Source: a virus (taxonomy: Duplodnaviria; Caudoviricetes). From it: 38,184 bases of DNA. The position numbers and the translations under genes are program-made. The notes beneath the pieces are model-generated. The model worked only from the letters and a program-made list of their open reading frames with translations, ran no database searches and was not told the origin of the DNA. The first letter of the stretch is position 1, and every line of letters begins with the position of its first letter. The stretch lies in IMG/VR virus record IMGVR_UViG_3300009111_000010, positions 1 through 38,184 of that record, one strand, 5' to 3'. Below are positions 12,889 to 13,486 of the stretch, piece by piece.

Positions 12889-13098
12889 ATGGCTTCGATA
12901 ATCCTGCATCCTTCCGACCTCCGCCCCTGTCCCAAGTGCGGCTACCCCCGCTGCTTCATGCGGGGGGCTAGATTGGTCGAGGCATACCGCTACGGGCAGA
13001 AGTGGATGGCCACTGCATCTAACCATAAGTGTAGCCCGAAGTTAGCACATAGTTTAACAGTTGTAAAAAAAGTGCTTGACTTTCCCGCAAAGGCATGA
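12889..13098 (+). CDS. Small Zn-ribbon protein
   Basis: ATG 12889 with SD GAGGT; CPKCG...HKC motif. Confidence 0.55.
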   Translation: MASIILHPSDLRPCPKCGYPRCFMRGARLVEAYRYGQKWMATASNHKCSPKLAHSLTVVKKVLDFPAKA

Positions 13099-13104
13099 TA
13101 AGGT
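13064..13104 (+). promoter_or_regulatory. Strong sigma70-type promoter
   Basis: A-tract UP element, TTGACT (13076-13081), 17-bp spacer ending in extended -10 TGn, TAAGGT (13099-13104). Confidence 0.8.
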
Positions 13105-13111
13105 CCGTCCC

Positions 13112-13475
13112 ATGTGCAGGACAAGACTCGGACAAGGGGCTGGGGACTTGGCGAAGGCGGGGAGCAGTATAGCCACCCCGCCGTGGCCTATCGGGGCACA
13201 CCCCACCCCTGCCTTTGTCTCCTGCGCAGTGCCTCAGGGGCCAGTCTTGGGTGGAGCATACGCAGAACCACTGCATATGACAGGCTGGCCCCCTTCTGTC
13301 TTGGCTACCCCCGTCCTCTGGCGCGGCCCGTTATAGGGCATGGTCCCGCAAGAGCTGCGCCTTTGGCGGGGTAGGTTGTCCCAGGTGCCGGGCACGGTGT
13401 CTGGGTCCAGGGGGAGTCTGTAGAGTCTAGTACCAGGGAGAGGTTGCTGGACGACACGGGCTCCCCCTTTCTTCT
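13112..13475 (+). ncRNA. Putative structured non-coding RNA or leader with five consecutive stem-loop domains
   Basis: Starts at the expected TSS of the promoter; long stems with plus-strand G-U wobbles; ends in a U-rich tail; no credible CDS. See findings. Confidence 0.7.
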
Positions 13476-13486
13476 ACCGAGGACAC

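What the first reader, a model, noticed from the sequence alone, without database searches (positions are those of the whole stretch)
13064..13480. ~360-nt five-domain structured RNA from a dedicated strong promoter, ahead of the replication operon
Seen: a near-consensus promoter is followed by back-to-back folded domains. D1 (13113-13228): TGTGCAGG/CCTGCGCA, GGACAAGGG/CCTTTGTCT and TGGGG/CCCCA closing a junction with hairpins GGCGGGG/CCCCGCC and GTGGCCT/GGGCAC. D2 (13237-13292): GGGGCCAGTCT/AGGCTGGCCCC with inner CATACGCAG/CTGCATATG. D3 (13305-13374): CTACCCC/GGGGTAG with inner GGCGCGGC/GCTGCGCC. D4 (13380-13405): CCCAGGTGCCG-GGCA-CGGTGTCTGGG. D5 (13409-13468): AGGGGGAGTCTGT/ACGGGCTCCCCCT with inner GTCTAGTACC/GGTTGCTGGAC, then TTCTTCT. 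Most non-Watson-Crick positions are G-U on the plus strand, the signature of selection on RNA structure, in an otherwise gene-dense genome. I do not recognise it as tRNA, tmRNA, 6S, an intron or a known riboswitch. Inference: a possibly undescribed phage ncRNA (decoy/sponge or anti-defence RNA), or an attenuator/antitermination leader gating primase-polymerase expression.
Basis: partly seen in the sequence, partly recalled or inferred. Interest (0 to 1): 0.85.

Follow-up and report, generated by a model that had tools for sequence, protein, structure and literature searches.

The report
Modular leader RNA of phage replication
An uncultured freshwater phage carries a folded RNA, with no Rfam match, between a conserved promoter and its DNA-replication genes; it likely works as a throttle that stops most transcripts early and leaves a stable piece of about 190 bases, and its second hairpin differs between otherwise near-identical strains while keeping its shape.

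Summary
The helices are real and favour the plus strand (z -2.0 to -2.7, against -0.9 to -1.9 on minus), but some coding tiles fold as well. There is no Rfam, tRNA or tmRNA match. The promoter scores only 8/12 to consensus. It is conserved, with a back-to-back reverse promoter, in the one close relative found (L002, 44% PolA identity). L002 also has a folded RNA and a U-tailed end hairpin there, but of unrelated sequence.

Contigs from two RNA-labelled runs start 10-15 nt after the predicted start and end at the 3' end of D2, so the stable species is probably D1+D2 (about 190 nt), not 360 nt. They carry a second allele: D1 is 99% identical, D2 is remodelled (+18 nt), with one compensatory and two pair-keeping changes and none shown broken.

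Best reading (0.40): an attenuating leader of the primase-PolA operon with two tandem terminator-like hairpins. Rivals: free decoy RNA (0.25), mere stabilising or terminating hairpins, replication primer, leader peptide, pRNA-like. Function is untested. The scan has noted similar arrangements on other DNA, but not this sequence.

The parts
13039..13067 (-). Back-to-back reverse promoter-like site (TTTACA-17-TG.N.TAACTT) pointing away from the RNA
   Evidence: Only copy in the window (10 of 100 shuffles have one). Same motif at the same place in L002, 565-537 (5 of 200 shuffles).
13065..13104 (+). Forward sigma70-type promoter: A-tract 13065-13071, -35 at 13076-13081, TG 13096-13097, -10 at 13099-13104; predicted +1 near A13112
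   Evidence: Sequence; conserved in L002; only exact copy of the motif in the window. The start site is inferred.
13112..13229 (+). D1: 117-nt domain; end-to-end helix with a 9-nt 5'-side bulge and a three-way junction
   Evidence: Folding. 123 of 124 nt identical over 13122-13245 in the second allele.
13236..13293 (+). D2: long hairpin with internal loop; remodelled (+18 nt) in a second allele with both helices kept; first terminator-like end
   Evidence: Both RNA-run contigs map to end here (inferred from their lengths and P0009).
13294..13302 (+). U-rich tail after D2 (6 U in 9); likely 3' end of the stable ~190-nt species
   Evidence: contig ends (weak hint).
13305..13405 (+). D3 (13305-13374) and D4 (13380-13405) hairpin domains
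   Evidence: Folding. Not covered by RNA-run contigs.
13409..13475 (+). D5: long hairpin with a 12-13 bp base stem and a U-rich tail (6 U in 8); second terminator-like end
   Evidence: z -5.8; base helix worth -25 kcal/mol; analogous end hairpin plus U tract in L002. Not a hit of the simple terminator scan.
13112..13336 (+). Open 74-codon frame from the predicted +1; probably not a conserved protein
   Evidence: Only homolog is the sister allele P0009. The conserved D2 block is read in different frames in the two alleles. No likeness to the L002 frame.
13479..13819 (+). SD-like GAGGA and first downstream gene (110 aa, C-terminal zinc ribbon)
   Evidence: Weak Pfam DZR hit; 66% homolog P0010; weak match to the syntenic L002 ORF (E 0.001).
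13852..16843 (+). DNA primase (about 13852-14646) and UDG-exonuclease-PolA fusion (14555-16843); SSB-like, Cas4-like nuclease, DnaB and RuvC-like genes follow
   Evidence: Pfam and PHROG.

Best explanation
The region is a folded, likely non-coding 5' leader between a conserved promoter and the phage's primase-polymerase operon, and it likely acts as an attenuator. Host RNA polymerase would start near 13112 (inferred). D1 folds at the very 5' end and would protect the transcript. Most polymerases would stop or be trimmed back at the U-rich tail after D2, leaving a stable RNA of about 190 nt (about 208 in the second allele). Those that pass meet a second hairpin with a U tail (D5) 18 nt before the first gene. 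Only read-through of both would give replication mRNA, so the leader would set a low level of primase and PolA. Since no competing RNA fold was found, raising read-through would need a protein antiterminator or leaky termination. Shown: helices, promoter conservation, gene order, allele differences, contig spans. Inferred: start site, termination, stability, regulation.
For: Same order in the only close relative: promoter, domain closing at +1, U-rich linker, long end hairpin with U tract, SD, small genes, primase, PolA. The promoters are alike (0 of 200 shuffles) while the RNAs are not (133 of 200), which suits a position-bound role. The promoter motif has no other exact copy in the window. 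Contigs of two RNA-labelled runs (X8, X10) start at 13122 and 13127 and map to end at about 13292 and 13290. The X10 contig is the only piece laid in 19.9 kb. The X8 contig has depth 7.8 against 2.1-3.5 for the 8 other exact pieces listed. In the second allele, of 19 D2 pairs 13 are unchanged, 1 is kept either way, 1 changes on both sides (A13260-U13276 to G-C), 2 change on one side and still pair, 2 are undetermined, and none is shown broken; the loop changes at 4 of 5 positions (read by eye).
Against: No termination or read-through was measured. D2 and D5 are long interrupted hairpins that the terminator scan does not call. No antiterminator fold is competitive: sequestering the D5 5' arm gains 6-11 kcal/mol against 25 for the terminator, and nothing comparable is seen in L002. 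No antiterminator protein was identified. The RNA evidence is unstranded contigs from runs found with this very stretch; X10 is flagged as probably DNA, both are 2025 freshwater runs that may be one campaign, and contig depth cannot rank expression. Covariation rests on a single allele swap, half of it read through a protein translation. Why a plain attenuator needs five domains and a swappable module is unexplained.
Confidence: 0.4

Rival explanations
1. D1+D2 is a free-standing, abundant RNA that acts in trans as a decoy or scaffold for a host protein (for example a defence or translation factor). D2 is the variable, host-facing module, and the place before the replication genes only supplies an early promoter.
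For: Discrete D1+D2 contigs. D2 differs while 8 other X8 pieces of the phage have 0 mismatches, as in modules under diversifying selection. An 8-nt block with GGAG in the D2 internal loop is kept in both alleles. Abundant phage RNAs of unknown job are known (passages of PMC9241854, PMC7567579, PMC12286853).
Against: No target found. Likeness to E. coli 16S or 23S rRNA is at chance level (33 of 200; 48 of 100; best 6 of 100 for the antisense strand). Pairing to phage mRNAs is no better than for control segments. No motif is shared with L002.
Confidence: 0.25
2. The hairpins are only 5' stabilisers and leaky constitutive terminators in a GC-rich spacer; there is no regulated switch and the short RNA is a by-product.
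For: Folding z is modest and matched by other stretches. No sequence conservation in L002. No alternative fold.
Against: About 360 and 280 nt are kept free of recognisable genes in two compact genomes. D2 keeps both helices and an unpaired block through a remodelling.
Confidence: 0.13
3. The transcript is a ColE1 RNA II-like pre-primer: it forms a persistent RNA-DNA hybrid that the phage PolA extends or that loads the helicase.
For: The phage encodes a family A polymerase just downstream; the RNA has 13 runs of three or more G; back-to-back promoters. The mechanism is as described in passages of PMC5043065. Earlier scan notes raised this idea for other phages (not support).
Against: The phage has its own primase and DnaB. 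No antisense RNA I-like promoter inside the RNA was seen in the scan. The GC-skew minimum lies at 10.5-11.5 kb, where gene direction flips. An AT-rich stretch with tandem repeats at 11.1-12.0 kb is a better origin candidate. The RNA seems to end at hairpins.
Confidence: 0.1
4. A leaderless 74-codon frame starting at +1 is translated, and the ribosome controls folding of D3 and D5 (leader-peptide attenuation).
For: ATG at the predicted +1 in the window and within about 4 nt of it in L002. The frame stays open in the second allele (net +18 nt). A modelled ribosome at its stop lets the D5 5' arm pair upstream in the nascent chain.
Against: That gain (-9.9 kcal/mol) is no better than at several other ribosome positions (to -11.5), the terminator still wins, and L002 shows no effect. 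The peptides are unrelated. The conserved block is read in different frames in the two alleles.
Confidence: 0.08
5. D1+D2 is a phi29 pRNA-like RNA that multimerises and serves the DNA-packaging motor or another ring.
For: Size and layout match: 117-nt three-way-junction domain, short linker and second hairpin domain (pRNA: 117 + 13 + 44 nt, PMC5066667). Only 9 of 593 shuffles with the closing helix kept are as close in tree distance.
Against: The comparison was chosen after the fact, and the coarse shape is common (235 of 593; 381 of 3046 genome windows). There is no hit to RF00044, which finds phi29 at 145 bits. Loops of the dominant fold share only 2 complementary bases. The phage has a 515-aa large terminase, which the review says replaces pRNA. 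L002's RNA has another shape.
Confidence: 0.04

Closest known systems
Attenuating or antiterminated phage leaders (lambda nut/N, HK022 put; recalled, only a search listing seen)
   Same: Promoter-proximal RNA and terminator-like hairpins ahead of replication genes that need read-through.
   Different: Much larger (five domains). No box sequence or antiterminator protein identified, no Rfam match, and a module that varies between strains.
Abundant phage RNAs of unknown function: GOLLD, ROOL, phage K lnc001/002, ICP1 ~800-nt RNA (passages of PMC12286853, PMC9241854, PMC7567579)
   Same: Intergenic, own promoter, highly folded, function unknown.
   Different: 190-360 nt rather than 600-1100; no tRNA genes in the window; no Rfam hit; beads-on-a-string layout without long-range pairing in the predictions.
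phi29 prohead RNA, Rfam RF00044 (PMC5066667 parts 1-2 of 5; passages of PMC4201828)
   Same: 117-nt three-way-junction domain plus a second hairpin domain, read from a promoter upstream of DNA polymerase.
   Different: No model or sequence match, no clear kissing loops in the dominant fold, large terminase present.
ColE1 RNA II pre-primer (passages of PMC5043065)
   Same: Folded non-coding transcript from a host-type promoter next to a family A polymerase system.
   Different: Phage primase and helicase present; no antisense RNA I seen; ends at terminator-like hairpins; origin-like features lie 1.5-2 kb upstream.
Lambda PreS/LPR1 sRNA (abstract and outline of bioRxiv 10.1101/2024.10.31.621285)
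   Same: Phage non-coding RNA tied to DNA replication.
   Different: PreS is described as a base-pairing sRNA acting on host genes; this RNA is almost fully paired and no target is known (host unknown).

Membership tests
Any Rfam 15 family (6S, SRP, tmRNA, RNase P, riboswitches, introns, ROOL, GOLLD, OLE and others) | Covariance-model score at the gathering threshold | tested here: not met
   0 hits in the window. Best E 2.6 for 12900-13600, 0.76 for D1+D2 (17 bits against a cut-off of 60), 3.7 for L002.
tRNA / tmRNA | ARAGORN gene call | tested here: not met
   0 genes.
phi29 pRNA | Domain I of about 117 nt with bulged helix and three-way junction, plus domain II | tested here: met
   9 of 593 controls as close, but the coarse shape is common.
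phi29 pRNA | Match to RF00044 | tested here: not met
   Searches show none; positive control phi29 scores 145 bits.
phi29 pRNA | Two complementary kissing loops | tested here: inconclusive
   2 bases in the dominant fold. 4 bases by eye in the ~10% conformer, with about 6% chance for loops of that size.
phi29 pRNA | phi29-type small packaging ATPase instead of a large terminase | tested here: not met
   515-aa protein matching phrog_2 terminase large subunit, E 1e-15.
Intrinsic terminator / attenuator leader | GC-rich stem directly followed by a U-rich tract before the first gene | tested here: met
   D2 and D5 tails and L002 end hairpin. The hairpins are longer than the simple scan allows.
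Intrinsic terminator / attenuator leader | Mutually exclusive antiterminator fold | tested here: not met
Intrinsic terminator / attenuator leader | Measured termination and regulated read-through | not testable with these tools
   Only unstranded contigs were available.
ColE1 RNA II-type primer | Antisense RNA I overlapping the 5' end | tested here: inconclusive
   No minus-strand promoter listed downstream of D1; one weak 9/12 site at 13124-13095. The scan is insensitive: it missed the forward promoter.
ColE1 RNA II-type primer | Persistent RNA-DNA hybrid extended by Pol I | not testable with these tools
   Needs biochemistry.
Protein-coding gene across the region | Conserved protein | tested here: not met
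   Three frames without Pfam or PHROG hits. The +1 frame's only homolog is the sister allele (the other two frames were not searched there). No likeness to L002 frames.

The most novel reading that the evidence does not exclude
The phage makes an abundant ~190-nt RNA with a fixed three-way-junction scaffold (D1) and an exchangeable arm (D2) that is swapped between near-identical strains. It is a modular RNA decoy tuned to a host protein, and its release from the leader also gates expression of the replication operon.
Probability: 0.15. Interest if true: 0.85.

Novelty: new variant of a known kind. Interest (0 to 1): 0.5.

Why it matters
Large folded RNAs ahead of phage replication genes are poorly understood. 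This one is small, comes in two natural alleles and has an unrelated counterpart in the same slot of a relative, so leader, decoy and primer models can be told apart by simple transcription and probing assays. A swappable RNA arm on a fixed scaffold would be a new form of phage variation. Weight is limited by the narrow known range (two alleles and one analogue), thin covariation, an unknown host and no function.

Tried and rejected
No homologue of the RNA by blastn in annotated phages or plasmids, by tblastn of P0009, or by blastn in the fetched loci (nhmmer only).

Collection scans. The promoter pattern was too general: 119 loci from 12 of 64 parts, none alike. The D1 18-mer gave 1 hit confined to the 18 bases. 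The D2 core gave 2 copies of one sequence that looks coding, a chance hit. Genome contigs gave 0. The primase motif gave L002 and one unrelated locus in viral contigs, and 12 loci in metagenome contigs, of which only the window's own sequence was alike. PolA searches added no closer relative with DNA. Relatives at 66-76% protein identity exist (P0002, P0003, P0007, P0008, P0010), but their DNA could not be fetched.

Ideas tested and dropped. rRNA mimicry or antisense: chance level. Antisense action of the D1 3' strand on neighbouring mRNA: two perfect or near-perfect 12-13 nt complements exist, but control segments do as well, and the repeated 8-mer is at chance level (1 seen, 2.8 expected). 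RNA antiterminator and ribosome switch: not supported. GC skew does not mark an origin here.

Not usable as evidence. Lack of RNA-run cover over D3-D5 is not proof of absence, because contigs drop thin or hard-to-copy parts. Runs X9, X11, X6 and X7 gave no useful alleles. Cluster membership of the overlapping frames could not be looked up, so it is open which frames gene callers annotated in the window's own contig.

Literature. Searches listed no paper on this RNA (titles and abstract starts only). The library lacks most subscription papers; supplements were not consulted.

Full report
Context. The window is a whole virus record of 38,184 bases, linear, with completeness estimated at 30%. Genes left of about 10.1 kb and right of 25 kb run on the minus strand (large terminase, AAA and vWA-like pair, probable virion genes, amidase, Cpn10). 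The middle runs on plus: small early ORFs, an HTH-like protein (a lead only), then a zinc-ribbon ORF, primase, UDG-exonuclease-PolA, an SSB-like gene, a Cas4-like nuclease, DnaB and a RuvC-like gene. Seven DNA runs from freshwater and wetland samples hold half or more of the words of 12800-13900, five of them 0.92 or more; one may be the source. The host is unknown.

Observation. The listed helices exist (77 Watson-Crick, 10 G-U and 1 A-C of 88 positions) and fold as five independent domains. The plus strand is 22-23 kcal/mol more stable than the minus strand. The statistics are moderate: z -2.0 to -2.7 for the whole, and -2.75 for D1+D2 (0 of 200 shuffles as stable). The region has the lowest energy but only the 8th best z among 160 tile-strands (80 of 103 tiles done). 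Two other stretches fold as well, and an 80-nt scan does not pick it out. Rfam and ARAGORN find nothing.

Promoter. TTGACT-17-TG.N.TAAGGT scores 8 of 12 and was missed by the scan. It is the only exact copy of its motif in the window and is conserved in L002 (0 of 200 shuffles). A reverse promoter-like site sits back to back with it in both phages.

The one relative with DNA. L002 (primase 36%, PolA 44%) has the same order: small ORFs, the promoter pair, a ~280-nt folded stretch (z -3.4 plus, -1.4 minus), a long end hairpin with a U tract, an SD, small ORFs (one weakly alike), primase and PolA. Its RNA has no sequence likeness to the window's (133 of 200 shuffles score as well), a different shape and no Rfam hit. 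So the slot and the ends are conserved, but not the RNA family; I cannot call the two homologous.

A second allele and a hint of expression. Two runs labelled RNA (X8; X10, flagged probably DNA) each give one contig over the region: 189 nt from 13122 and 182 nt from 13127. Each has 1 difference up to 13245 and then the same unlike letters. In X10 it is the only piece laid in 19.9 kb. In X8 it has depth 7.8, against 2.1-3.5 for 8 other exact pieces, one of which starts at 13486 in the first gene. A homolog search with the frame that starts at 13112 returned one protein, P0009 (80 aa, 4 contigs). Its residues 45-54 are exactly what the 30 visible unlike letters encode, so the allele exists in other assemblies and is not an RNA artefact. 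Identity resumes 6 codons later than in the window, so D2 is 18 nt longer. Counting 65 and 63 unlike letters from 13245 puts the contig ends at the equivalents of 13292 and 13290, the end of D2, just before a U-rich tail. Both ends of both contigs agree within 5 nt. This is a weak hint for a discrete D1+D2 RNA: the contigs are unstranded, the runs were found with this stretch, and they may be one campaign.

Structure in the second allele (read by eye; 3'-side bases come from fixed codon positions). Of 19 D2 pairs, 13 are unchanged and 1 pairs with either possible base. A13260-U13276 becomes G-C, U13245.G13284 becomes U-A, and C13246-G13283 becomes U.G. Two pairs are undetermined and none is shown broken. 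Q42R fits A13236G, which would add a pair with C13293. The apical loop changes at 4 of 5 positions and the indels fall in the internal loop. The block 13252-13265 is kept (13 of 14 bases) but read in different frames in the two alleles, which argues for RNA-level rather than protein-level constraint. It is one event, so its weight is limited. Against non-coding status, the +1 frame does stay open in both alleles, which I estimate has roughly a one-in-five chance by accident.

Mechanism. What is conserved is position: a promoter, a 5' domain that closes at +1, and terminator-like hairpins before the first replication gene. I therefore read it as an attenuating leader that sheds a stable ~190-nt RNA (0.40). 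No RNA switch was found: holding the D5 5' arm upstream gains 6-11 kcal/mol against 25 for the terminator, a modelled ribosome at the stop of the +1 frame is not special, and L002 shows no such option. Any regulation would therefore need a protein, and none was identified. The rivals are a trans-acting decoy (0.25; the D2 swap in an otherwise identical phage is its best argument, but rRNA mimicry and mRNA pairing failed their controls), plain stabilising or terminating hairpins (0.13), a ColE1-like primer (0.10; origin-like repeats and AT-rich DNA lie at 11.1-12.0 kb instead), a leader peptide (0.08) and a pRNA-like RNA (0.04).

Comparison with known RNAs. Size and layout of D1+D2 recall phi29 pRNA (PMC5066667, parts 1-2 of 5 read; passages of PMC4201828), and 9 of 593 matched shuffles come as close. 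However, RF00044 does not hit, the loops of the main fold are not complementary, and a large terminase is present, so it is not a member. GOLLD, ROOL and the abundant RNAs of phages K and ICP1 are larger, and GOLLD, ROOL and the phage K RNAs are mostly tRNA-linked (passages). ColE1 RNA II was taken from passages of PMC5043065, and PreS from the abstract and outline only. Lambda nut and HK022 put are recalled. Ten literature searches listed nothing on this RNA. Earlier scan notes describe folded RNAs ahead of phage polymerase or initiator genes on other DNA, but none with this sequence or L002's. They supplied the primer lead and are not support.

Verdict. Interest 0.5.

Noticed in passing
window 13039-13067 (-) and L002 537-565 (-): Conserved reverse promoter back to back with the RNA's promoter. 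A leftward RNA would be antisense to small ORFs at 12693-13098 and could end at the minus-strand terminator 12595-12576 (fold z -2.3).
   Followed up: partly
window 11101-11196: About 5.3 perfect tandem copies of an 18-nt unit next to the gene-direction switch and GC-skew minimum; iteron-like or a coding repeat.
   Followed up: no
window 11376-12299: 307-aa ORF with an HTH-like part (Atlas lead, score 0.88) and an AT-rich middle with short repeats; possible initiator gene with an internal origin.
   Followed up: partly
window 12726-12833: 35-aa hydrophobic ORF whose coding strand forms a long hairpin (z -5.5 for the 80-nt window at 12761). L002 also has small ORFs, one hydrophobic, just before its promoter.
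   Followed up: no
window 8367-8731 (-) and 3257-3760 (-): Stretches in the vWA-like gene and just upstream of the terminase gene that fold unusually well (z -3.1, -3.7).
   Followed up: partly
window 8073-10087 (-): AAA_5 ATPase next to a vWA-like protein (CobS/CobT-like pair by recall).
   Followed up: no
window 20983-21516 and 26139-26447: HNH endonuclease before the helicase, and a short ORF that looks like a LAGLIDADG-type remnant (by eye).
   Followed up: no
L002/L202 3190-3214: A second exact copy of the forward promoter motif inside the relative's PolA gene (0 of 200 shuffles have two).
   Followed up: no
window 5993-7222 and 23332-24033: C-methyltransferase (sugar-type) and a family 2 glycosyltransferase-like gene; possible DNA or virion modification.
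   Followed up: no
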